From: Escherichia coli
Lineage (GTDB): Bacteria > Pseudomonadota > Gammaproteobacteria > Enterobacterales > Enterobacteriaceae
DNA length: 64,000 bases
Reading direction: 5' to 3' (one strand)
Assembly: GCF_030013205.1 (NCBI RefSeq)
Contig: NZ_CP122648.1
Shown: in pieces, positions 10,988-43,875 of the stretch
Position numbering within the stretch: the first letter of the stretch is position 1
How the letters are laid out: every line of letters starts with the position of its first letter
The notes under the pieces: model-generated
Database searches by the model: none
Told to the model about the DNA's origin: nothing
Seen by the model: the letters and a program-made list of their open reading frames with translations, nothing else
Position numbers and translations under genes: made by a program

Positions 10988-11491
10988 TTACTGATAGTGT
11001 TTTATGTTCAGATAATGCCCGATGACCTTGTCATGCAGCTCCACCGATTTTGAGAACGACAGTGACTTCCGTCCCAGCCTTGCCAGATGTTGTCTCAGAT
11101 TCAGGTTATGCCGCTCAATGCGCTGAGTATAACGCTTGCTGATAACGTGCAGCTTTCCCTTCAGGCGTGATTCATACAGCGGCCAGCCATCCGTCATCCA
11201 TACCACGACCTCAAAGGCCGACAGCAGGCTCAGAAGACGCTCCAGTGTGGCCAGAGTGCGTTCACCGAAGACGTGCGCCACAACCGTCCTCCGCATCCTG
11301 TCATACGCGTAAAACAGCCAGCGCTGACGTGATTTAGCACCGACGTAGCCCCACTGTTCGTCCATTTCAGCGCAGACAATCACATCACTGCCCGGTTGTA
11401 TGCGCGAGGTTACCGACTGCGGCCTGAGTTTTTTAAGTGGCGGAAAATCGTGTTGAGGCCAACGCCAATAATGCGTGCACTGGCGCGACAT
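10988..11491 (-). CDS. insB: IS1 InsB
   Basis: 167-aa ORF inside IS1, overlapping insA in the -1 frame. Confidence 0.9.
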
Positions 11492-11685
11492 CCGACGCCA
11501 TTCATGGCCATATCAATGATTTTCTGGTGCGTACCGGGCTGAGAGGCGGCGTAAGTGAACTGTAGTTGCCATGTTTTACGGCAGTGAGAGCAGAGATAGC
11601 GCTGATGTCCGGCGGTGCTTTTGCCGTTACGCACCACCCCGTCAGTAGCTGAACAGGAGGGACAGCTGATAGAAACAGAAGCCAC
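11410..11685 (-). CDS. insA: IS1 InsA
   Basis: 91-aa ORF inside IS1. Confidence 0.9.
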
Positions 11686-11833
11686 TGGAGCACCTCAAAA
11701 ACACCATCATACACTAAATCAGTAAGTTGGCAGCATCACCTACATTCCTGCATTGTTCTGTGAACACTGACTGCAATATCAACTGACTCTCCGGAAACAA
11801 GAAAAACCGTCAGAATAAGTGCAAATACTGGAT

Positions 11834-12127
11834 TCATTGTGCACATCCTTTTGGCATCAGACGTAAACGGGCCAGCATTGAAACAATGCATACTTTATTT
11901 AATAACTCCCGTTCGTGTTTTCTTTTGTTAATGGCCTCTTCAGTGAATACAGGATTACTGATAGTGACACCAATTTCAAAACAACCTTCAGACGTATTAA
12001 CGTTTGGTAATAACGTTTTCATTATCGCGCCCTCAACAATGAGTTTTGTGATGCGGTGCCTGGTGCCTCCAGGTGACGTTAACCAGTTAACAATTAACGC
12101 CGGATACAGAGAATCCACCCATAACAC
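11834..12127 (-). CDS. hypothetical early-left protein (start uncertain; an alternative ATG at 12022 gives 62 aa)
   Basis: ORF track; stop overlaps the start of the IS1-disrupted ORF; a GAGGG SD precedes the 12022 start. Confidence 0.35.
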   Translation of the reverse strand: MLWVDSLYPALIVNWLTSPGGTRHRITKLIVEGAIMKTLLPNVNTSEGCFEIGVTISNPVFTEEAINKRKHERELLNKVCIVSMLARLRLMPKGCAQ

Positions 12128-12582
12128 TGTTTTGGGTTTTAACTGTTCCGCGTGCGCTTAGCCGCATTCACCGCATCACAAAATTCACTTTAAAAATGGC
12201 GGCAGAGCAGTCACGGAGTAAAACTGATACCGCCAAACGTCACCAGAAAATTGATAACAGAGGGCGTTGCAGCGGGGTTGTCACTTAAGCGTATGGTCAA
12301 CCTGACAACCCGGTGTCCTCAACGGGGAAGGAATAACCTCGCCATACTTACCGCCGCGCCATTTCGCGGAGTGCCACAACCGGAAGCGCACGGTCGACGA
12401 AAATTTAACGACAGGCTATCTATGAACCAGCTACCTCGCCGTGCGCTTTCGCGTTATGGTCTGACTTTTCAGGGAAATATCCTTTCAGTAAACTGTCAGT
12501 GCCGGATGTTCACCCGTGTCCGGCGCACGCACTCCACCTCACCCGTGGAGAACTCCTTAATTACCAACCCTCAGGAGGGTGA

Positions 12583-12816
12583 ATGTTAAAATCAACTCTT
12601 ATTGCTAAATGCCTTTATCAAAATCGCATGGTAAGCAGCATTTCAATAGGCGAGTCTGCAGTTAAAAGTATTTTCGAAGAGTACTTCCCCGGGCATGATT
12701 TTAATAAATGGAATACCAAATTACCGCCAGCAGTTTCAACGCGTATTCTGAAATCAACTGAAAGAGCAAGTACAATTCGCGTTAACTATTTCATTAAAGA
12801 TTTGTGGGATCTTTGA
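12583..12816 (+). CDS. hypothetical 77-aa protein on the strand opposite to the early-left operon
   Basis: AGGAGG SD 4 nt before the ATG at 12583; AT-rich coding sequence in a GC-rich context. Confidence 0.4.
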   Translation: MLKSTLIAKCLYQNRMVSSISIGESAVKSIFEEYFPGHDFNKWNTKLPPAVSTRILKSTERASTIRVNYFIKDLWDL

Positions 12817-13201
12817 TATCCACAGAGCCTAAAGTATGTGCATATGGATGTGCTATTGTGCGCCCTCGCAGATTTGCATCATTTTCTAAATTCACTGAAC
12901 GAAACAGGGCATCAACAAGGCTCTGTACAATGCAAAGGCAATCGAAGACTGTCGCTGTTTCTGTTTTGATTGATGAAAGAACATGGCCATTCACGCAAAC
13001 AGAAATTACCCGTTCATTAACATCGCTTTCCTGCTTTTGATTATCAGAACCATATAGCCCAGAAAAAGCATTGCGCACATTACGAACCATATTATCGATG
13101 GTTTCTTTTTTGGTGTATGCCGGGTCAATTTTCACCAGACTATCACCGAGAGTCGTTGCAGCAATTGTCTGGATTTCTTTTGGTAAATCTTTAAATTCCA
13201 T
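12794..13201 (-). CDS. hypothetical early-left protein (135 aa)
   Basis: ORF track; lies in the leftward operon between repressor and exonuclease. Confidence 0.5.
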   Translation of the reverse strand: MEFKDLPKEIQTIAATTLGDSLVKIDPAYTKKETIDNMVRNVRNAFSGLYGSDNQKQESDVNERVISVCVNGHVLSSIKTETATVFDCLCIVQSLVDALFRSVNLENDANLRGRTIAHPYAHTLGSVDIKDPTNL

Positions 13202-13223
13202 TATTAGCCTCGTTGGTTAGCTA

Positions 13224-13442
13224 TTAACGTGGGTATGTAATCATTCTGGCAATGCTTAATGCCGCTGCTTTTTCCAGATTGGTGATATCCTGCTCCAGAG
13301 CGGACAGATTTTCAGCCTGCTTAGCCCTGGCTTCATTGGCCCATTTCAGATCCTGCACTGCATTAATTTTCTGGCGCATCCACTTATAAAGTTCATCATC
13401 GGTATAGTCTGGCGCGATGATGACGGGTTCTCGTTTCTGCAT
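13224..13442 (-). CDS. hypothetical early-left protein (72 aa)
   Basis: ORF track; same operon context. Confidence 0.45.
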   Translation of the reverse strand: MQKREPVIIAPDYTDDELYKWMRQKINAVQDLKWANEARAKQAENLSALEQDITNLEKAAALSIARMITYPR

Positions 13443-13471
13443 ACTGATTCCTCGCGGTGCTGTTTCGCTTA

Positions 13472-13600
13472 TCAGCCGTTAGATTTTGCCGAACTGGAAA
13501 GCGCCTGTTTAAACTCACTGAAGCTGAGAGCTTCTTCGCCTTCGGCAAGTCCTTCGAAGTATTCTTCGTAAGCCTTTTCCATGATTGTGTCGAAATCCAT
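13472..13600 (-). CDS. hypothetical small protein (42 aa, MDFDTIMEKAYEEYFEGLAEGEEALSFSEFKQALSSSAKSNG)
   Basis: Found by manual translation; AGGTGAG SD upstream of the ATG at 13600; fills the gap between neighbouring ORFs. Confidence 0.3.
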   Translation of the reverse strand: MDFDTIMEKAYEEYFEGLAEGEEALSFSEFKQALSSSAKSNG

Positions 13601-13601
13601 A

Positions 13602-13838
13602 TTACTCACCTGAGTTTCTTTCCAGCCAGCGACGCGCGCCAGATTCGGTTTTAAACGTTTTGCTTTTGGTATACGTCATCGCGGTGAACGTGCCGTCCTG
13701 GTTGGGAAACACGCCGTATACCAGAGATTCGTTGTTGCCAAGATCGATAGTATCCATGCTGACCTCATTTCCCCTTAACGCCGGGGTAGCGGAACAAAAA
13801 CCTGCTGCATAGTTATTAAAGTTGAACCCTGCCGTCAT
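13602..13838 (-). CDS. hypothetical early-left protein (78 aa), first gene after the left operator
   Basis: ORF track; GAGG SD upstream of the ATG at 13838. Confidence 0.4.
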   Translation of the reverse strand: MTAGFNFNNYAAGFCSATPALRGNEVSMDTIDLGNNESLVYGVFPNQDGTFTAMTYTKSKTFKTESGARRWLERNSGE

Positions 13839-13939
13839 GTTCTTACGCCTCGGGCTGGCTACTTAACCCCTGACCACTGCCTGGTAACTCGAAGTATTGC
13901 CCTGCATTCTGTGGGGCGGGGTGGGTTGGTATGAAAAGA

Positions 13940-13982
13940 AGGATACCCATAGGTATTTAAAAGTAAATACCCATGGGTAACT
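13940..13982 (-). promoter_or_regulatory. left operator/promoter region (two palindromic 14-mers)
   Basis: atacccataggtat (13943-13956) and the perfect palindrome tacccatgggta (13968-13979), downstream of the repressor gene and upstream of the leftward operon. Confidence 0.5.
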
Positions 13983-14021
13983 TTTTGCGGTGTCTTAACT
14001 GGTGACTAGTTGTTTGGTGAG

Positions 14022-14441
14022 CTATGATGCGTTTTGTGCTTTCTTTTTACGGATTTCTTCGTAGATCATATTGTAATACTGTTTTTTCTCTTCAAGAGTT
14101 TTTAATAAGTTATCCGCTTCACTTTCTGGCAGTTCGTCTAAGAGATCTAAAAAAATACGTTGTCGTGGCGTTAGAACCCTTGTTTCATAACTGGAGGCTG
14201 TGTTCGTTGATGATGAAACGATACCATCCATCCATCCCCGGGGTAACCCAAAGGACTCTTCGATAATCTCCACCATATCATCAGCGATCCGTTTTTTTCC
14301 CTTTTTCCCCTCTGGGTACAACATTCTTGATACATAAGAAGGCTCGCGCCCGATCTTTCTGGCCACGTTAACCGCTTTACCATCGCATTTCTCATCACGA
14401 ATTTTGATGAGTTGCTGTCGTCTAAATTCATATTTGTCCAT
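14022..14441 (-). CDS. prophage repressor (HTH, CI/RacR-like)
   Basis: 139-aa ORF with an N-terminal helix-turn-helix (KAVNVARKIGREPSYVSRML); flanked by operator palindromes and divergent from a cro-like gene. Confidence 0.6.
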   Translation of the reverse strand: MDKYEFRRQQLIKIRDEKCDGKAVNVARKIGREPSYVSRMLYPEGKKGKKRIADDMVEIIEESFGLPRGWMDGIVSSSTNTASSYETRVLTPRQRIFLDLLDELPESEADNLLKTLEEKKQYYNMIYEEIRKKKAQNAS

Positions 14442-14475
14442 AGGTAAATAATAGATGCGATTACCGCAAGGTAAA

Positions 14476-14516
14476 CAACCTGTGGGTATTGACTTTTGTT
14501 TACCTGTGGGTATTCT
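14476..14516 (+). promoter_or_regulatory. right operator/promoter region
   Basis: Two copies of acctgtgggtat (14478-14489, 14502-14513), the reverse complement of the left-operator half-site family; a TTGACT -35-like hexamer lies between them. Confidence 0.5.
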
Positions 14517-14541
14517 TTACTGTGTTTACTAAGGAGTAGCT

Positions 14542-14823
14542 ATGGAAGAATTAAGAATATTTCTCAATTCTCTTTCGTCAGATGAACAGCGTATGTTTGC
14601 ATGCGAGTGTGGTACCAGCATCGGTTATCTAAGAAAGGCATTGAGTAAAGGTCAAGTGTTAGGGGCATCGTTATGCGTCCTTATTGAGCGAGCCAGTAAT
14701 GGTGAAGTTACACGTCAGCAACTAAGGCCTTTTGATTGGATGAATATTTGGCCCGAGCTGGAAGATACCAAAACGTTAACACAACCACTTTCTAGGAGCT
14801 TGATTCATGAAAATCAAGCATGA
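14542..14823 (+). CDS. Cro/YdaS-family HTH protein
   Basis: 93-aa ORF divergent from the repressor; segment GTSIGYLRKALSKGQV...QQLRPFDW resembles YdaS/Cro-type regulators. Confidence 0.55.
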   Translation: MEELRIFLNSLSSDEQRMFACECGTSIGYLRKALSKGQVLGASLCVLIERASNGEVTRQQLRPFDWMNIWPELEDTKTLTQPLSRSLIHENQA

Positions 14824-15232
14824 ACACATCCGCATGGCGATGAATGCCTGGGCGCATCCGGACGGTGAAAAAGTTCCGGCAGCTGAAATAACCAGGGCTT
14901 ATTTTGAACTGGGTATGACGTTCCCAGAACTGTATGACGACAGCCATCCGGAAGCCCTGGCTCGCAATACCCAGAAAATTTTCCGCTGGGTAGAGAAAGA
15001 CACCCCTGATGCAGTTGAAAAAATTCAGGCGTTGTTACCAGCGATCGAAAAGGCAATGCCACCTTTGCTGGTGGCCAGAATGCGCAGCCACAGTTCAGCT
15101 TATTTTCGGGAGCTGGTGGAGACGCGGGAGCGACTGGTGAGAGACGCTGATGATTTTGTCGCAGTGGCAATCGCCGGTTTCAATCAGATGAACCGTGGTG
15201 GCCCGGCAGGAAATGCTGTGGCAGTACATTGA
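14807..15232 (+). CDS. YdaT-like protein
   Basis: 141-aa ORF overlapping the cro-like gene by 17 nt; position equivalent to ydaT/cII in Rac-type prophages. Confidence 0.45.
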   Translation: MKIKHEHIRMAMNAWAHPDGEKVPAAEITRAYFELGMTFPELYDDSHPEALARNTQKIFRWVEKDTPDAVEKIQALLPAIEKAMPPLLVARMRSHSSAYFRELVETRERLVRDADDFVAVAIAGFNQMNRGGPAGNAVAVH

Positions 15233-15297
15233 CTGACAATAGCCATATCGAATCGCTTCCGGCAACTCGTGAGTAAAAAGATTCGGTATCAGAAGAG

Positions 15298-16374
15298 GTG
15301 AGTATGGCTAACGCCTGGCTCAGATTATGGCATGACATGCCAAATGACCCTAAGTGGCGAACAATTGCCAGGGTGTCAGGGCAGCCAATTGCAACAGTGA
15401 TGGCAGTGTATATCCACCTCCTGGTGAGCGCGTCACGAAATGTCACGCGAGGTCACATTGATGTCACGACAGAAGATTTGGCAAGTGCGCTCGACGTGAC
15501 AGAAGAGGTAATTGATTCAATTTTGCAGACGATGCAGGGGCGGGTACTTGATGGTGATTTAATCACTGGATGGGAAAAACGCCAGGTGCTTAAAGAGGAC
15601 AACGGCAATATTTCGCAAACCGCAAAATCTCCTGCAGAGCGCAAGAGGGCGCAGCGAGAGAGGGAAAGAAAGCGGGAACAAAATGGCGATTGTCACGGCG
15701 CGTCACGAAATGTCACGCACATGTCACGACGAGTCACGACAGATAAAGATACAGATAAAGATACAGATCAAGAAGATCAAAACACTATGGTCCATGGCGT
15801 AAAAAACGCCACGAACCGGGCAGGGGATGTTCAGACCGTCAATCTTGGTCAGCCAGCAGGCACGACACCGGAAGCCGATTCAGCGTATGCGCTGAAAGCC
15901 GATTCGGGCGCTGTGCAGCAGGTGATGACCGCAAGGCTGGAGCAATCACACCAACTGCAGCAGCCCGAAGCCGATTCCGCCATTCAGCGGGAAGCCGATC
16001 GGGTAGTCCCGGAAAACACCGGGCAGTCTGTGGGACGAGTGGATTATCCGGATGTGTTCGAACAGGTCTGGCGGGAGTACCCGTTGCGTGCCGGAGCAAA
16101 CCCGAAGAAATCCGCTTTCAGTGCCTGGAAGGCCAGATTACGCGAGGGGGTGCCACCAGAGGCCATGCTGGATGGCGTGAGGCGTTACGCAAGATACTTG
16201 GCGGCTACCGGGAAAACGGGAACGGAATTTGTTCAGCGAGCGACGACGTTTTTTGGACCGGACCGGAATTTTGAGAACCCCTGGTTGCTCCCGGTAAGCG
16301 GCACGAACAACCAGCGTTGTGTGAATCATATTTCTGAACCGGATAACGAAATTCCGCCGGGCTTCAGGGGGTAA
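15298..16374 (+). CDS. phage replication initiation protein (O-like), origin embedded in the gene
   Basis: 358-aa ORF in the replication position; two clusters of 10-bp-phased GTCACG iterons lie inside the coding sequence. Confidence 0.5.
   Translation: MSMANAWLRLWHDMPNDPKWRTIARVSGQPIATVMAVYIHLLVSASRNVTRGHIDVTTEDLASALDVTEEVIDSILQTMQGRVLDGDLITGWEKRQVLKEDNGNISQTAKSPAERKRAQRERERKREQNGDCHGASRNVTHMSRRVTTDKDTDKDTDQEDQNTMVHGVKNATNRAGDVQTVNLGQPAGTTPEADSAYALKADSGAVQQVMTARLEQSHQLQQPEADSAIQREADRVVPENTGQSVGRVDYPDVFEQVWREYPLRAGANPKKSAFSAWKARLREGVPPEAMLDGVRRYARYLAATGKTGTEFVQRATTFFGPDRNFENPWLLPVSGTNNQRCVNHISEPDNEIPPGFRG
15431..15780 (+). repeat. iteron-like origin repeats followed by an A/T-rich repeat tract
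   Basis: GTCACG at 15432, 15442, 15463 (variant gtcaca at 15452) and at 15692, 15702, 15712, 15723, 15733; followed by agataaagatacagataaagatacagat. Confidence 0.5.
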
Positions 16375-16414
16375 GTGTTAATTTCTGGTCATGAGGTAAT
16401 TTTCAGGAGGGCTT

Positions 16415-16837
16415 GTGGCAAAAGTTTTTACACAAGAAGAGCGGGAAAAAATTAAAGGACAGGTTGTTGAACTCGTACGCCAGAGTGGGCGTGAGACGTT
16501 ACGGCAACTGGAAGTCAAGACAGGTGCGACAAGATATCTGATGAGCGTTCTCGCAAGAGAGCTGGTTGCCAGCGGCGATGTATACAACTCTGGTTACGGG
16601 TTATTCCCGTCTGAACAGGCGCGTAAGGACTGGCAAAATGCCCGTAAAAAGCTCTCAAGGGCAAAGCTGAAGAAACCATCTGCGGTTGATCCGGACCTTA
16701 TCTGGTCATTACCTGACGGAGAAATACGTCGCTACGACAGGCGTCAGAACATAATCTGTCGCGAGTGCCGGAAGAGTGAAGTTATGCAGCGCATATTGTC
16801 GTTTTATCAGGGTGATGTTCGGTATTTATTGAAGTGA
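16415..16837 (+). CDS. hypothetical protein (140 aa) in the replication module
   Basis: ORF track; follows the replication gene; possible HTH segment. Confidence 0.4.
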   Translation: MAKVFTQEEREKIKGQVVELVRQSGRETLRQLEVKTGATRYLMSVLARELVASGDVYNSGYGLFPSEQARKDWQNARKKLSRAKLKKPSAVDPDLIWSLPDGEIRRYDRRQNIICRECRKSEVMQRILSFYQGDVRYLLK

Positions 16838-16983
16838 CGAGATTAAAGTGCATTAGTTCAGATGCAAATTGACATTTTGTGGCACAGGGTAGAGCTAGCG
16901 TGGTTGTCCGCTTTGTGCCAACAGCGGACATTATAGATGGTATATGTAGAAAGTGAACATGCGTAGATTGTATGATTTAGCCG

Positions 16984-17793
16984 TCACTTAATTATTGGAT
17001 AACTCACACAAGTATGACCGTTGCTTATCGCATACATTTGGTTTCCCTTAAGATTTACAAATGGAAATGTCGTATACTCATAATTTATAGAGGTCATATT
17101 AAATGTAAGGAATTTATCTTCAAGTTCTAATTTTGTAGAGTGGGCAGGGTATGTTCCTTCATTTTTCATTGTGATAATAAAACCGATAGGAAAAAAATGT
17201 AAAGCACAAATAAATGCCACATGTCCTTCGTTCATAAATGCTACACTTTGAGCGGATATGTGCATTCTGTGTGGGTAAAACCAGTAGTAAATATCATGAG
17301 TTTCCTCAAAACTTGAATTTTTACCCAAAACATAATCCTTTAAAGGTGTATAGAAGGGGCTATCTACGGGTTCTTTTTTACAATCTTCAACTGAAGTTGC
17401 TGATAGCACGTGCCCAATCATAGCCTTAGTGAAAGATATGCTATCAAAAGGTATTCTAATGAATGGATATACATTCATACCATTCATATATCGACTTAAC
17501 TGTTCTTTAAAGGACTTTGTTACATTTTCAATTGCAACATCGAGCCCACCTAATACCTTATTGTTACAGTGGCTGCAAATGGTTCTGAAATAAGAGCCAT
17601 TTTTAGCATTTAATGGTTTAACTGGTTCCTGAATACCAAAAAATTCGCTAACTGTTTTCTGCAAAACAGGGCCTAAGGTTATGGCGCACTTTGGAGGAAC
17701 ATGATCTTTTGTGAGCAAGCCATATTTCCCACAAATATTGCAATAACCTTCAGTAATGCCATTGTGCTTCCATCGTTCACTAATTTTCGTCAT
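16984..17793 (-). CDS. HNH (His-Me finger) nuclease-domain protein with an uncharacterised C-terminal domain
   Basis: 269-aa ORF; CxxC (18/21), DH-x-P (30-33), CxxC-N (73-77); GAGGG SD; AT-rich and antisense to the flanking rightward genes. Confidence 0.6.
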   Translation of the reverse strand: MTKISERWKHNGITEGYCNICGKYGLLTKDHVPPKCAITLGPVLQKTVSEFFGIQEPVKPLNAKNGSYFRTICSHCNNKVLGGLDVAIENVTKSFKEQLSRYMNGMNVYPFIRIPFDSISFTKAMIGHVLSATSVEDCKKEPVDSPFYTPLKDYVLGKNSSFEETHDIYYWFYPHRMHISAQSVAFMNEGHVAFICALHFFPIGFIITMKNEGTYPAHSTKLELEDKFLTFNMTSINYEYTTFPFVNLKGNQMYAISNGHTCVSYPIIK

Positions 17794-18116
17794 TTTTATT
17801 CCCTCAGTAGCATAAGCTATCTATACGTTTTTTAATCCTATCAAAGATACAACTTAACGTCAGGAAAATGATAGTGTTTATCTAAGTAATACAATTAACT
17901 TCAACGCGTGACAGTCTGCTTTTCGCTAAAAGCGGACTAGAAGGTTAGCTTGCGTCGGACTTGGCGTATTTAAAGAAGTGCTGGTGGTGACTGGTTGTTG
18001 TGTTCCATTTCTACAGAACAAAATCACAGAAACTATACCCAATAGTTGTATTGAATCACTGACGAGACAGCCTCATATTTATCAGGACTGGTGTACGTCC
18101 AATACAGGAGGTTGTG

Positions 18117-18206
18117 GTGCTGGTTCTCAAATGTGCGCTGGCTATTGCTGCTGTAATGGCAATTTATTGCCTTGCTGTTGTTCTTATGGATCGCCTTTCT
18201 GATTGA
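18117..18206 (+). CDS. putative small hydrophobic peptide (29 aa, MLVLKCALAIAAVMAIYCLAVVLMDRLSD; GTG start)
   Basis: Perfect AGGAGG SD at 18106-18111, 5 nt before the GTG at 18117; single predicted transmembrane helix; followed by a long hairpin and an intrinsic terminator. Confidence 0.3.
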   Translation: MLVLKCALAIAAVMAIYCLAVVLMDRLSD

Positions 18207-18245
18207 TTTTATATTGGCGAGGTGACGTGAGTTAAGTAGAATTGC

Positions 18246-18332
18246 TGCGGGTGCTTGAGGCTATCTTCCTCTGATGTGTCAGGCATCCTCAACGCACCCG
18301 CACTTAACCCGCTTCGGCGGGTTTTGTTTTTT
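18246..18332 (+). terminator. long imperfect hairpin followed by an intrinsic terminator
   Basis: tgcgggtgcttgagg...cctcaacgcacccgca (18246-18302), then cccgcttcggcggg plus a T-run (18306-18332). Confidence 0.5.
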
Positions 18333-18404
18333 CCTGGCATTCTGGTTTACAATTCGCACGCCAGCCTGAACAACTGGCACCTGCTGCGCCAGCAGAGACA
18401 ACCG

Positions 18405-35158: not shown

Positions 35159-35842
35159 TATGTATTCCCTTGTGATTATAATCTTCATGAATATATCAAT
35201 AAGTGCCGTTATCCAAAAAAAAGCACATTTGGATACTATTCTATGAAGTTCATTTTATTTTAAAGATTACATGCAACAAATATATTTAAAAGATTTCAAA
35301 ATGTTTCTAATCTATTTAATATAATTCGGAATTATGAATTCTAAATATAAATATTCATGAAAATTATAAATGTATATCAATATGTTATGAGTTGAGCGGA
35401 AACATAGGGGGTATCAATGATTGTTGCGCCAAACGGCTGGTGTGATCACGCGCACATTAATGAAGGCATAAAAAAAGCCGGCATCATGCCGGCCCAAAAA
35501 AATAAACAAGACGATAAAAGGCTAATAACGGAAGCATCATGACACAGAATAATAAAAAGGTATAATTGTAATCAGTGCTAATATATTGATTGAATGAATT
35601 AATAAAGCCGATATCAAAGATAAATAAAATCGCTCAAAACGATTTTTCCTGTATTCACTGCCGTTGCGCAAAAATTATCTATTTGTTCAAAAAATGATTG
35701 AGTCTTGACTGGCTCATCCAATGTGGAAAAATGTGACTTTTATCACATAATAGTACTAAGTCTGAATTTTCCGGGTTATCTCAAAATGGAATACGGTTCG
35801 ACAAAGATGGAAGAGAGACTCTCTCGCAGCCCTGGCGGCTAA

Positions 35843-43606: not shown

Positions 43607-43787
43607 TTACCAGGATGATTCTCAAAACAGCACAAATTATCAAAGATGATTTTTTCGGGAGCGATCCCGTTGACGCCAGAGCCACCAAGGGGTGACGCGC
43701 GTCACATTTCTATTCATAAGTAGCGTTAATCATTCATATCACGAATATTTTCTTGTCAGCGAAAAAAATTGCGGATAAGGTGATGAG

Positions 43788-43875
43788 CACATCAGATTTC
43801 CTGGTGTAACGAATTTTTTAAGTGCTTCTTGCTTAAGCAAGTTTCATCCCGACCCCCTCAGAGTCGGGATTTTTT
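43788..43875 (+). ncRNA. dsrA: DsrA small regulatory RNA
   Basis: ...acatcagatttcctggtgtaacgaattttttaagtgcttcttgcttaagcaagtttcatcccgaccccctcagagtcgggattttttt, matching DsrA including its terminator. Confidence 0.85.

What the first reader, a model, noticed from the sequence alone, without database searches (positions are those of the whole stretch)
13940..14520. Immunity region: repressor gene bracketed by four copies of a palindromic 14-mer
Downstream of the repressor gene are atacccataggtat and the perfect palindrome tacccatgggta. In the repressor/cro intergenic region are two copies of acctgtgggtat, the reverse complement of atacccacaggt, 24 bp apart and bracketing a TTGACT hexamer. This is a lambda-like OL / cI / OR-PR / cro arrangement with a recognisable operator consensus (ATACCCAYRGGTAT), which suggests the immunity switch is still intact in this defective prophage.
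Basis: seen in the sequence. Interest (0 to 1): 0.35.

Follow-up and report, generated by a model that had tools for sequence, protein, structure and literature searches.

The report
Prophage immunity switch with conserved operators
This is the on/off control region of a decayed lambda-like virus in the E. coli chromosome: a repressor gene flanked by five (not four) copies of its predicted DNA binding site, an ordinary kind of switch whose particular binding-site sequence and repressor appear not to have been described.

Summary
All four motif copies are at the stated coordinates, and a fifth was missed (TTACCGCAAGGTAA, 14461-14474). The core TACC-N4-GGTA occurs 5 times in the 64-kb window against 0.34 expected by chance.

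This is the immunity region of a truncated, Qin-like lambdoid prophage of E. coli. It has two left operators (OL1, OL2) over a leftward promoter PL that drives ydfA-ydfB-ydfC-DicF-dicB. It has three right operators (OR1-OR3) over divergent promoters: PR, for a YdaS-type cro gene followed by ydaT, and PRM, which appears to give a leaderless repressor mRNA.

Ten diverse homologous regions have the same motif at the same positions. They include the plaque-forming phage mEp043 and loci from Salmonella, Yersinia, Serratia, Pantoea, Klebsiella and Edwardsiella. The Qin and Rac immunity regions, which use unrelated repressors, have none.

The 139-aa repressor is modular. Its DNA-binding domain is shared with S24-peptidase cI repressors (65% identical to mEp043 cI). 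Its C-terminal part is DicA-like and has no autocleavage domain, so RecA-dependent self-cleavage is not expected.

Binding is inferred, not shown. This is a new member of a known kind, and interest is modest.

The parts
13943..13956 (.). OL1: operator ATACCCATAGGTAT, overlapping the -10 hexamer of PL
   Evidence: Exact match to TACC-N4-GGTA. An equivalent site overlaps the -10 of the leftward promoter in all 10 homologous loci.
13967..13980 (.). OL2: operator ATACCCATGGGTAA, abutting the -35 hexamer of PL and 24 bp from OL1
   Evidence: Exact core match. The paired site lies 24-26 bp from its partner in all homologous loci.
13940..13967 (-). Predicted PL, the equivalent of Qin dicBp: -35 TTTACT (13967-13962), 16-bp spacer, -10 TATCCT (13945-13940)
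   Evidence: Read by eye. It scores 8 of 12, below the threshold of the scan. It is in the same register as PR (I1) and as better hexamers in homologues, such as TTGACA and TATATT. Of the 80 near-identical copies, 78 have a 17-bp spacer.
14022..14441 (-). Repressor gene, 139 aa (WP_000362155.1, annotated 'hypothetical protein'): HTH DNA-binding domain aa 1-72, disordered linker, DicA-like helical C-terminal domain aa ~89-138
   Evidence: ORF; annotation; no Pfam hit; phrog_5736 'transcriptional regulator', E 4e-70. The C-terminal part matches DicA. The DNA-binding domain is shared with S24-type cI repressors. AlphaFold model.
14461..14474 (.).
   Evidence: Exact core match. TTTACC....GGTA is invariant or nearly so in the alignment of 11 loci.
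14476..14489 (.). OR2: operator CAACCTGTGGGTAT; only one half-site is conserved. It abuts the -35 of PR and lies just upstream of the -35 of PRM
Evidence: The half-site next to the PR -35 (CAATACC in repressor sense) is invariant in 11 loci, and the other half is degenerate in most.
14500..14513 (.). OR1: operator TTACCTGTGGGTAT, overlapping the -10 of PR
   Evidence: Exact core match. TACC/GGTA are invariant in 11 loci.
14489..14516 (+). PR: -35 TTGACT, 16-bp spacer, -10 TATTCT; it drives the cro-like gene and ydaT
   Evidence: Promoter scan, 9 of 12. TTG of the -35 is invariant in 11 loci.
14448..14475 (-). PRM-like promoter: -35 TTTACC (14475-14470), 16-bp spacer, -10 TATTAT (14453-14448). 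The predicted start is at the A of the repressor ATG (14441), so the mRNA would be leaderless
   Evidence: Promoter scan, 9 of 12. TAnnAT sits 6-7 nt before the ATG in most of the aligned loci, and no Shine-Dalgarno sequence is present. paaR2 and lambda cI are leaderless in the same way (PMC8630535).
14542..14823 (+). cro-like gene, 93 aa, YdaS family
   Evidence: Pfam YdaS_toxin, E 9e-6, below the cut-off; phrog_35. It is 47-74% identical to the cro-position proteins of all homologous loci. Related to CP-933P YdaS/Cro, PDB 8c7k, E 1e-10.
14807..15232 (+). ydaT, the CII-equivalent regulator, 141 aa
   Evidence: Pfam YdaT_toxin; phrog_163 'CII-like'. Near-identical to PDB 3c4r (3 differences, one of them at the first residue) and close to 8bt1, CP-933P YdaT.
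14800..14817 (.). Exact YdaT operator TTGATTCATGAAAATCAA at the cro/ydaT junction
   Evidence: The only exact match to TTGATTN6AATCAA in the window. CP-933P YdaT footprints the same sequence at the same location (PMC9986795).
11834..13757 (-). Early-left operon predicted to be driven by PL: ydfA (13602-13757), ydfB (13472-13600), ydfC (13224-13442), a 135-aa ORF, DicF sRNA (12197-12248), dicB (11834-12022)
   Evidence: RefSeq annotation of the identical stretch; Rfam DicF, 73.4 bits. Homology to K-12 Qin begins abruptly about 40 bp upstream of ydfA, near window 13796.

Best explanation
Window 13940-14520 is the immunity switch of a truncated, Qin-like lambdoid prophage of E. coli. The prophage spans about 7026-26800 and lies beside tRNA-Ser and mtfA.

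The 139-aa protein encoded at 14022-14441 (minus strand) is the prophage repressor. Its N-terminal helix-turn-helix domain is predicted to bind, as a dimer, the 14-bp sites WTACC-N4-GGTAW.

Predicted effect at each site:
- OR1 and OR2 cover the -10 hexamer and the upstream edge of the -35 hexamer of PR. Occupancy would shut off the cro-like gene and ydaT.
- OL1 and OL2 cover PL in the same way. Occupancy would shut off ydfA-ydfB-ydfC-DicF-dicB, an operon that encodes cell-division inhibitors.
- OR2 is centred about 41.5 bp upstream of the predicted start of the repressor's own leaderless transcript. That is the position from which lambda cI activates PRM.
- OR3 lies over the PRM -35 hexamer and would give autorepression at high repressor levels.

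The cro-like YdaS-family protein is expected to use the same sites with the opposite preference. YdaT binds its own exact operator at 14800-14817.

The repressor has a DicA-like helical C-terminal domain instead of an S24 peptidase domain. It should therefore not be cleaved in the SOS response. If it is inactivated at all, this would be by an antirepressor or by spontaneous flipping of the switch.

Shown here: the sites, their non-random clustering, their conservation in position and register across homologous phages, the domain make-up, and the intact ORFs. Inferred: protein-DNA binding, transcription start sites, activation from OR2, oligomerisation and the route of induction.
For: 1. Enrichment. 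There are 5 exact cores in the window against 0.34 expected. In 10 diverse homologous loci there are 40 exact cores in 62.9 kb against 0.96 expected. Nineteen of these fall in the 100-nt stretches upstream of the repressor ATG, against 0.015 expected.

2. Conserved positions. Most loci have OR1, OR2 and OR3 spaced 24-25 and then 15 bp apart, plus a pair of sites 24-26 bp apart ahead of the early-left genes; L090 has only OR1 and an altered OR3. The pair lies 0.1-2.5 kb downstream of the repressor. These loci are phage mEp043, phage CharmingMan, Salmonella (two), Serratia, Yersinia, Pantoea, Klebsiella, Edwardsiella and one metagenome contig.

3. An unguided MAFFT alignment of the intergenic regions makes TACC/GGTA of OR1, CAATACC of OR2 and TTTACC..GGTA of OR3 invariant or nearly so.

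4. The promoter hexamers are in fixed register with the sites. PL/OL is a 40-nt inverted duplicate of PR/OR.

5. The predicted recognition-helix stretch (aa 34-42) is nearly invariant across the family, matching the invariant half-site. The cro proteins are homologous in all loci.

6. Negative controls. The Qin dicA/dicC and Rac racR/ydaS regions contain no copy of the motif.

7. Among 80 near-identical E. coli copies, changes in OR fall mainly in the central 4 bp, while the arms are almost always kept; the one recurrent arm change is noted under evidence against.

8. Characterised analogues have the same layout: dicA/dicC/dicBp of Qin (PMC10448788) and PaaR2/YdaS/YdaT of CP-933P (PMC8630535).

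9. The domain architecture is supported.
Against: - There are no binding or expression data for this repressor or for any family member in the literature I could search.
- PL matches only 8 of 12 consensus positions and was not reported by the promoter scan.
- OR2 has a poor second half-site.
- The OL pair also folds into a 16-bp RNA hairpin followed by a U-rich run, so part of its conservation in this prophage could serve termination.
- Conservation of the DNA-binding domain, cro and the sites together cannot say which protein reads the sites.
- About a fifth of the near-identical E. coli copies carry GGTA->AGTA in OR3, so not every site is under strict constraint.
Confidence: 0.85

Rival explanations
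1. The two downstream palindromes act as the arms of an intrinsic terminator that ends the repressor transcript before it reads into the toxic ydfA-dicF-dicB operon. This would be instead of, or in addition to, acting as operators.
For: On the minus strand the pair forms a 16-bp stem with a 4-nt loop followed by UCCUUCUUUU. The fold energy is about -23 kcal/mol, z-score -4.2 against shuffles. The stem begins only about 42 nt after the repressor stop codon. No other terminator-like site lies between the repressor gene and PL.
Against: Two similar palindromes side by side will always be able to pair with each other, so the hairpin follows automatically. In homologues the same pair lies up to 2.5 kb from the repressor gene, always in promoter register, and in mEp043 it sits behind a separate GC-rich terminator. 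The stem has only 5 G-C pairs and the U-run is interrupted. As an added role this is plausible; as the sole role it is not.
Confidence: 0.2
2. The sites are read only by the cro-like YdaS-family protein, and the 139-aa protein recognises some other sequence.
For: The cro-like protein is conserved with the sites in every locus. In CP-933P, YdaS footprints the same intergenic region as the repressor (PMC8630535).
Against: The repressor's DNA-binding domain is also conserved with the sites, whichever C-terminal module it carries. No other repeated element is conserved in the intergenic alignment. In every characterised lambdoid switch both proteins share the operators (established knowledge of lambda, P22 and 434; also Qin and CP-933P). 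The OL sites must be held off in the lysogenic state, when cro is silent.
Confidence: 0.05
3. The four or five copies are a chance cluster of an AT-rich palindrome.
For: None beyond the shortness of the core, which has 8 specified bases.
Against: None of 100 shuffles reached the observed count. The same cluster recurs in 10 independent loci at the same positions.
Confidence: 0.01

Closest known systems
dicA / dicC / dicBp immunity region of the Qin cryptic prophage of E. coli K-12
   Same: The gene order and orientation match: a short repressor followed by ydfA-ydfB-ydfC-dicF-dicB, with a divergent cro-like gene. The left arm is about 95% identical from roughly 40 bp upstream of ydfA onward. 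The C-terminal 46 residues of the repressor are 33% identical to DicA. Like DicA, the repressor is short and has no cleavage domain. In Qin, DicA represses dicBp, the switch is bistable, and it is relieved by the antirepressor Rem (PMC10448788).
   Different: The DNA-binding domain, the operators and the cro gene are unrelated to those of Qin. There is no TACC-N4-GGTA in the dicA/dicC region and no N-terminal similarity to DicA. The protein scores 23.9 bits against a 101-bit cut-off for the DicA NCBIfam model. No Rem homologue is present in the window. A YdaT-type CII equivalent follows cro here.
cI / OR / cro / OL of coliphage mEp043 and related S24-type repressors annotated 'LexA family'
   Same: The DNA-binding domain is 65% identical over aa 1-86, with a nearly invariant predicted recognition helix. 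The operator motif, number, spacing and promoter register are the same. The cro proteins are homologous, 70% identical.
   Different: mEp043 cI is 228 aa, and its C-terminal half aligns with S24-peptidase family members, so it is presumably SOS-cleavable. The window protein replaces that half with a DicA-like helical hairpin. mEp043 has N, a lambda-type cII and a separate terminator after cI. I found no published operator analysis for mEp043 either.
PaaR2 / YdaS / YdaT switch of cryptic prophage CP-933P (E. coli O157:H7)
   Same: The logic is the same and has been shown experimentally there: a non-cleavable repressor made from a leaderless mRNA, PRM, PR and PL all controlled by the repressor and by YdaS, and YdaT acting as the CII equivalent (PMC8630535). 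The window's YdaT is a close relative of the CP-933P protein (PDB 8bt1, E 1e-80), and the exact YdaT operator sits at the same gene junction. The cro-like protein is related to YdaS.
   Different: The operator sequence differs: the CP-933P consensus half-site is GTTTAGTAA, in four 18-bp repeats. There is no paaA2-parE2 toxin-antitoxin pair behind the repressor here. I did not compare the repressor with the PaaR2 sequence directly. A sequence search of the PDB found nothing related to the repressor.
Gifsy-type short repressors (GfoR, GtgR, GfhR) with LexA-controlled antirepressors, and the Rep-Ant pair of a Salmonella temperate phage (PDB 5d50)
   Same: These are short repressors of about 136 aa that are not cleaved on induction. 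DicA and RacR are listed as members of the group (PMC3121763). The best structural match of the model is the Rep chain of 5d50 (E 9e-4).
   Different: The fold match is weak (TM 0.44-0.47, 16-24% identity). No sequence comparison with the Gifsy repressors was made. There is no LexA box and no recognisable antirepressor gene in the window.

Membership tests
Lambdoid immunity region (repressor / OR / cro plus OL-PL) | Divergent repressor and cro genes separated by a short intergenic region with several copies of one operator motif | tested here: met
   The intergenic region is 100 bp (14442-14541) and holds three sites. The layout is conserved in 10 loci.
Lambdoid immunity region (repressor / OR / cro plus OL-PL) | Operators overlap the -35/-10 hexamers of PR and of the repressor's maintenance promoter | tested here: met
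   Consensus promoter matches on both strands are in register with the sites, and that register is conserved. The promoters are predicted, not mapped.
Lambdoid immunity region (repressor / OR / cro plus OL-PL) | A second operator cluster over a leftward early promoter on the far side of the repressor gene | tested here: met
   OL1 and OL2 have hexamers in the same register as PR. The PL hexamers match only 8 of 12 and were not reported by the scan.
Lambdoid immunity region (repressor / OR / cro plus OL-PL) | The repressor and Cro physically bind the operators and give a bistable switch | not testable with these tools
   This needs EMSA or footprinting and reporter fusions.
Lambda cI / LexA-type self-cleaving repressors (Peptidase_S24) | C-terminal S24 peptidase domain with a Ser/Lys dyad and a cleavage site | tested here: not met
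   There is no Pfam hit at all. The protein is 139 aa. Its C-terminal half is unrelated to that of its S24-bearing relatives in alignment A1.
DicA (NCBIfam NF007257) | Full-length match above the curated cut-off, including the N-terminal HTH domain | tested here: not met
   The score is 23.9 bits against a cut-off of 101, and only aa 86-136 match. BLASTP aligns only aa 89-134, at 33% identity.
Short non-cleavable prophage repressors (DicA / Gifsy class) | Length of about 135-140 aa, an HTH N-terminal domain plus a short helical C-terminal domain, and no peptidase domain | tested here: met
Short non-cleavable prophage repressors (DicA / Gifsy class) | Inactivated by a dedicated antirepressor | tested here: inconclusive
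   There is no Rem homologue and no LexA box in the window. An antirepressor could be unrecognised or encoded elsewhere in the genome.
mEp043-type repressor DNA-binding domain with WTACC-N4-GGTAW operators | Homologous N-terminal domain with the conserved SYVSRMLY predicted recognition helix | tested here: met
   The domain is 65% identical to mEp043 cI. There are 317 family members, and this stretch is nearly invariant.
mEp043-type repressor DNA-binding domain with WTACC-N4-GGTAW operators | Three OR sites spaced 24-25 and 15 bp apart, and a pair of OL sites 24-26 bp apart | tested here: met
   In the window the spacings are 24 and 15 bp at OR and 24 bp at OL. In the homologues they are 25, 15 and 24-26 bp.
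YdaS / YdaT module (CP-933P type) | A YdaT protein with the TTGATTN6AATCAA operator at the ydaS/ydaT junction | tested here: met

The most novel reading that the evidence does not exclude
One immunity cassette (DNA-binding domain, WTACC-N4-GGTAW operators and cro) circulates in Enterobacterales with two interchangeable repressor C-terminal modules. One is an SOS-cleavable S24 peptidase domain, as in active phages such as mEp043. The other is a non-cleavable DicA-like helical domain, as in the prophage found in about 15% of complete E. coli genomes.

If the two forms read the same operators, the cryptic prophage would give its host permanent immunity against the inducible phages of this group, and that immunity would not be lost on SOS induction. 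The unusual concentration of polymorphism in the central 4 bp of OR1 and OR2 would then reflect tuning of operator strength or escape from such immunity.
Probability: 0.3. Interest if true: 0.45.

Novelty: new member of a known kind. Interest (0 to 1): 0.3.

Why it matters
The result gives a name and a testable operator map to a protein annotated 'hypothetical' in 821 of 5,426 complete E. coli genomes. [quoted passage not shown]

It also provides a clean natural example of domain swapping in phage repressors. The same DNA-reading head and operators occur with either a self-cleaving or a non-cleaving tail. This is useful for asking how induction mode evolves and whether cryptic prophages protect against related active phages.

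It does not change the general picture of lambdoid switches.

Tried and rejected
- **Sequence search of the repressor against the PDB.** It found only insignificant Z-alpha-domain hits (E 0.08 or worse). I did not pursue a winged-helix reading, because the AlphaFold model and Foldseek point to an XRE/cI-type helix-turn-helix domain.
- **Similarity to RacR.** None was found.
- **First IMG/VR scan.** It returned only 99-100% identical copies. These were useless for testing conservation across distance but useful for the polymorphism analysis. Diverse loci had to be fetched one protein at a time.
- **Search for an induction route.** I looked for a LexA box and a Rem-type antirepressor. Both were negative, so the induction route stays open.
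- **A third OL site.** None lies within 60 bp of OL2 in the window. An extended palindrome, TACC-N14-GGTA, sits upstream of OL in mEp043 and in the Pantoea locus only.
- **Literature searches.** Searches for the operator strings, WP_000362155 and mEp043 operators found nothing relevant. The library lacks most subscription journals, so prior description cannot be excluded.
- **Terminator-only reading of the OL pair.** Rejected as the sole role, because homologues place the pair far from the repressor gene.
Full report
**1. The observation**

- ATACCCATAGGTAT at 13943-13956.
- The perfect 12-bp palindrome TACCCATGGGTA at 13968-13979.
- ACCTGTGGGTAT at 14478-14489 and again at 14502-14513, 24 bp apart, with TTGACT at 14489-14494 between them.
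- A 139-aa ORF at 14022-14441 on the minus strand, lying between the two pairs.

The symmetric core TACC-N4-GGTA occurs five times in the 64-kb window against 0.34 expected, and no shuffle reached that number. Four of the five lie in 13944-14512. The fifth is an isolated copy at 59852 in host DNA.

So the region holds five sites: two downstream of the repressor gene and three in the 100-bp space between it and the rightward gene.

**2. Where this is**

The stretch is 100% identical to chromosomes of porcine E. coli strains. In those records it lies in a prophage inserted beside tRNA-Ser and mtfA.

The prophage is clearly decayed:
- Its integrase is frameshifted.
- An IS1 element interrupts a left-arm gene.
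- The element ends after the large terminase subunit and runs directly into the host gene zinT, with no head or tail genes.

In window coordinates the remnant spans about 7026-26800, so 'defective prophage' is correct.

Leftward of the repressor lie ydfA, ydfB, ydfC, a 135-aa ORF, the DicF sRNA (Rfam 73 bits, 12197-12248) and dicB. This is the order found in the Qin prophage of K-12 behind dicA. Homology to Qin is about 95% through ydfA and ydfB but stops abruptly about 40 bp upstream of ydfA, near window 13796. Everything from there through the repressor, the intergenic region and the cro-like gene is a different module: a classic lambdoid mosaic joint.

**3. The proteins**

*Repressor.*
- It has no Pfam hit and is annotated 'hypothetical protein'.
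- It matches PHROG 5736, 'transcriptional regulator', end to end.
- Only its last 50 or so residues resemble DicA: NCBIfam E 2.8e-5, far below the cut-off, and BLASTP 33% identity over aa 89-134, E 1e-7.
- It has no similarity to RacR.

*Relatives.* A database search found 317 relatives. A minority are 135-140 aa like this one (E. coli, Salmonella, Serratia, Yersinia). Among the 120 best hits listed, most are 221-242 aa 'LexA family' proteins whose only Pfam domain is Peptidase_S24. In the alignment, residues 1-72 are shared by all at 50-80% identity. The stretch E-P-S-Y-V-S-R-M-L-Y is nearly invariant. The C-terminal halves fall into unrelated classes.

*Phage relatives.* The cI protein of the plaque-forming coliphage mEp043 is 65% identical over residues 1-86.

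*Structure model.* The AlphaFold model has mean pLDDT 86. It shows:
- a four-to-five-helix N-terminal domain (aa 3-72, pLDDT above 90);
- a disordered linker (aa 76-87);
- a helical hairpin with a long last helix (aa 92-138).

Foldseek places the model nearest the repressor chain of a Salmonella-phage Rep-Ant complex (5d50, E 9e-4). Next come XRE-type controller proteins and lambda cI. These are weak matches but consistent with an ordinary helix-turn-helix head.

*Rightward genes.* The rightward gene (14542-14823) encodes a YdaS-family, cro-position protein. The next gene encodes YdaT, near-identical (3 differences, one of them at the first residue) to PDB 3c4r and close to the CP-933P YdaT of PDB 8bt1.

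**4. Are the palindromes operators?**

I fetched ten diverse loci that encode relatives of the DNA-binding domain:
- phages mEp043 and CharmingMan;
- Salmonella (short form and S24 form);
- Serratia, Yersinia, Pantoea, Klebsiella and Edwardsiella;
- one metagenome contig.

In most of them the same core sits at the same places:
- one site about 72 bp upstream of the repressor ATG;
- a second site 24-25 bp closer, usually with one degenerate arm;
- a third site 15 bp closer still;
- a pair 24-26 bp apart somewhere between 0.1 and 2.5 kb downstream of the repressor, ahead of the early-left genes (N in mEp043).

The truncated Klebsiella locus L090 is the exception at OR: it has only OR1 and a mismatched OR3, and no cro gene.

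The counts are 40 exact cores in 62.9 kb against 0.96 expected. Nineteen of them lie in the ten 100-nt upstream stretches, against 0.015 expected.

An alignment of the intergenic regions, made without reference to the motif, renders the site arms invariant or nearly so. The Qin and Rac immunity regions, whose repressors have unrelated heads, contain no copy. The cro-position proteins are homologous in all loci, at 47-74% identity.

Pooling 50 sites gives the half-site W-T-A-C-C-Y-R, that is WTACCYRYRGGTAW. Because most sites were picked by the core pattern, the invariance of TACC in that table is partly by construction. One search is the independent evidence.

**5. Promoter anatomy**

*PR.* PR is TTGACT, 16 bp, TATTCT at 14489-14516. 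OR2 ends on the first T of the -35 hexamer, and OR1 runs into the -10 hexamer.

*PRM.* On the other strand, TTTACC, 16 bp, TATTAT at 14475-14448 has its -35 inside OR3. Its -10 ends 6 nt before the repressor ATG, and there is no Shine-Dalgarno sequence. The predicted transcript therefore starts at the A of the ATG and is leaderless. A TAnnAT at that distance is present in most of the aligned loci. Leaderless repressor mRNAs are documented for lambda cI and for paaR2 (PMC8630535).

*Site positions relative to the predicted starts.* With the PRM start at 14441, the centres are OR2 at -41.5, OR1 at -65.5 and OR3 at -26.5. From my own knowledge of lambda, OR2 there is centred near -42 of PRM, the position from which cI activates. 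This comparison was not computed here.

*PL.* The two downstream sites have the same layout read leftward: GGGTAT-TTACT...TACCTATGGG-TATCCT. This gives -35 TTTACT (13967-13962) and -10 TATCCT (13945-13940). It matches only 8 of 12 consensus positions and was not reported by the scan. Three observations support it:
- The 40 nt are an 80% inverted copy of the PR stretch.
- Homologues carry better hexamers in the same register, such as TTGACA or TAGACA with TATATT.
- 78 of 80 near-identical E. coli copies have one more T in the spacer, giving 17 bp.

PL is therefore the counterpart of Qin's dicBp, which DicA represses (PMC10448788).

**6. Variation among close copies**

The cassette (13930-14545) is present in 821 of 5,426 complete E. 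coli genomes, mostly at 99% identity or more.

In 80 IMG/VR copies whose repressors are 99-100% identical, substitutions in the upstream 100 nt concentrate in the central four bases of OR1 and OR2. Nine of the 12 central positions are polymorphic. The arms are almost always kept. The one recurrent arm change is GGTA to AGTA in OR3, in about a fifth of the copies.

Fixed arms with a free centre are what contacts by a dimeric helix-turn-helix protein predict. Whether the density of central changes means more than relaxed constraint is open.

**7. Rival readings**

*Terminator.* The OL pair also forms a 16-bp RNA hairpin of about -23 kcal/mol (z -4.2), followed by a U-rich run, about 42 nt after the repressor stop codon. 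It could help stop the repressor transcript from entering the dicF-dicB operon. However, two similar palindromes side by side must be able to pair with each other. In homologues the pair lies far from the repressor gene, and in mEp043 it sits behind a separate terminator. Termination can therefore be at most an added role.

*Cro only.* Comparison alone cannot exclude that only the cro-like protein reads the sites. But the repressor head tracks the sites regardless of its tail, no other conserved repeat exists, and PL must be held off when cro is silent.

*Chance.* Excluded.

**8. How induction might work**

The protein lacks the S24 domain, so RecA-stimulated self-cleavage is not expected. The same has been argued for DicA and reported for PaaR2 and the Gifsy repressors. 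Those systems use antirepressors (Rem, GfoA and relatives) or flip spontaneously.

The window has no Rem homologue and no LexA box. Given the truncation, the element cannot produce phage in any case. The physiologically relevant output of the switch is expression of DicF, DicB and the rightward genes.

**9. The CII-like layer**

TTGATTCATGAAAATCAA at 14800-14817 spans the end of the cro-like gene and the ydaT start codon. It is the only exact match in the window to TTGATTN6AATCAA. CP-933P YdaT footprints that high-affinity site at the same junction (PMC9986795). This part of the switch is already characterised elsewhere and is also intact in sequence.

**10. Verdict**

The region is an ordinary lambdoid immunity switch built from three known kinds of module:
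- a Qin-type left arm;
- an mEp043-type head, operator and cro cassette;
- a CP-933P-type YdaT.

What appears undescribed is the specific operator and the repressor family's two-tail architecture. I found nothing on either in the searchable literature, but that library is incomplete.

Novelty: new member of a known kind. Interest: about 0.3.

Noticed in passing
window 14800-14817: An exact copy of the published YdaT high-affinity operator, TTGATTN6AATCAA, spans the end of the cro-like gene and the ydaT start codon. The YdaT protein here is near-identical to PDB 3c4r (3 differences, one of them at the first residue).
   Followed up: yes
window 12197-12248 (-) and 11834-12022 (-): The DicF sRNA (Rfam 73 bits) and dicB lie downstream of the predicted PL. 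The switch therefore probably controls two cell-division inhibitors, as in Qin.
   Followed up: partly
L004-L083 (IMG/VR copies), region equivalent to window 14442-14541: Among copies with 99-100% identical repressors, substitutions cluster in the central 4 bp of OR1 and OR2 (9 of 12 central positions are polymorphic). About a fifth of the copies carry GGTA->AGTA in OR3.
   Followed up: partly
window 13957-13966: The window has TTTT where 78 of 80 near-identical copies have TTTTT. This shortens the OL1-OL2 spacing from 25 to 24 bp and the PL spacer from 17 to 16 bp.
   Followed up: partly
window ~13895-13925 (-): A C-rich stretch, CCAACCCACCCCGCCCCACAGAA, lies just downstream of the predicted PL start. 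It is also present after the OL pair in two Salmonella loci (L087, L088). It could be a Rho-utilisation or antitermination-related leader element. Not examined.
   Followed up: no
L002 3553-3578 and L089 3757-3782: An extended palindrome, ATTACCTGAAAWTTCAAKCAGGTAAA, has the same arms separated by 14 bp instead of 4, one helical turn more. It lies about 43 bp upstream of the OL pair in mEp043 and in a Pantoea prophage, but not in the window.
   Followed up: partly
proteins P0015 and P0018 (other E. coli genomes); alternative frame in window 14171-14431 (-): Some E. coli copies encode a frameshifted repressor. Its N-terminus comes from the overlapping 86-aa frame, so it lacks the DNA-binding head. 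The switch has therefore decayed in some lineages.
   Followed up: no
window ~13796: A sharp mosaic joint: identity to K-12 Qin is about 95% to the left (ydfA, ydfB) and absent to the right (PL, the operators, the repressor).
   Followed up: yes
window 22037-22343 (+): A cluster of three tRNA genes (annotated Ile, Thr, Gly) lies inside the prophage, between the Q antiterminator gene and the lysis genes.
   Followed up: no
window 16984-17793 (-): A 269-aa cysteine-rich ORF on the opposite strand within the replication-gene region. It is annotated hypothetical and had no family assigned here.
   Followed up: no
window 43786-43872 (+) and 35470-35558 (-): The host sRNA genes DsrA and RseX were detected by Rfam in the chromosomal part of the window.
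   Followed up: no
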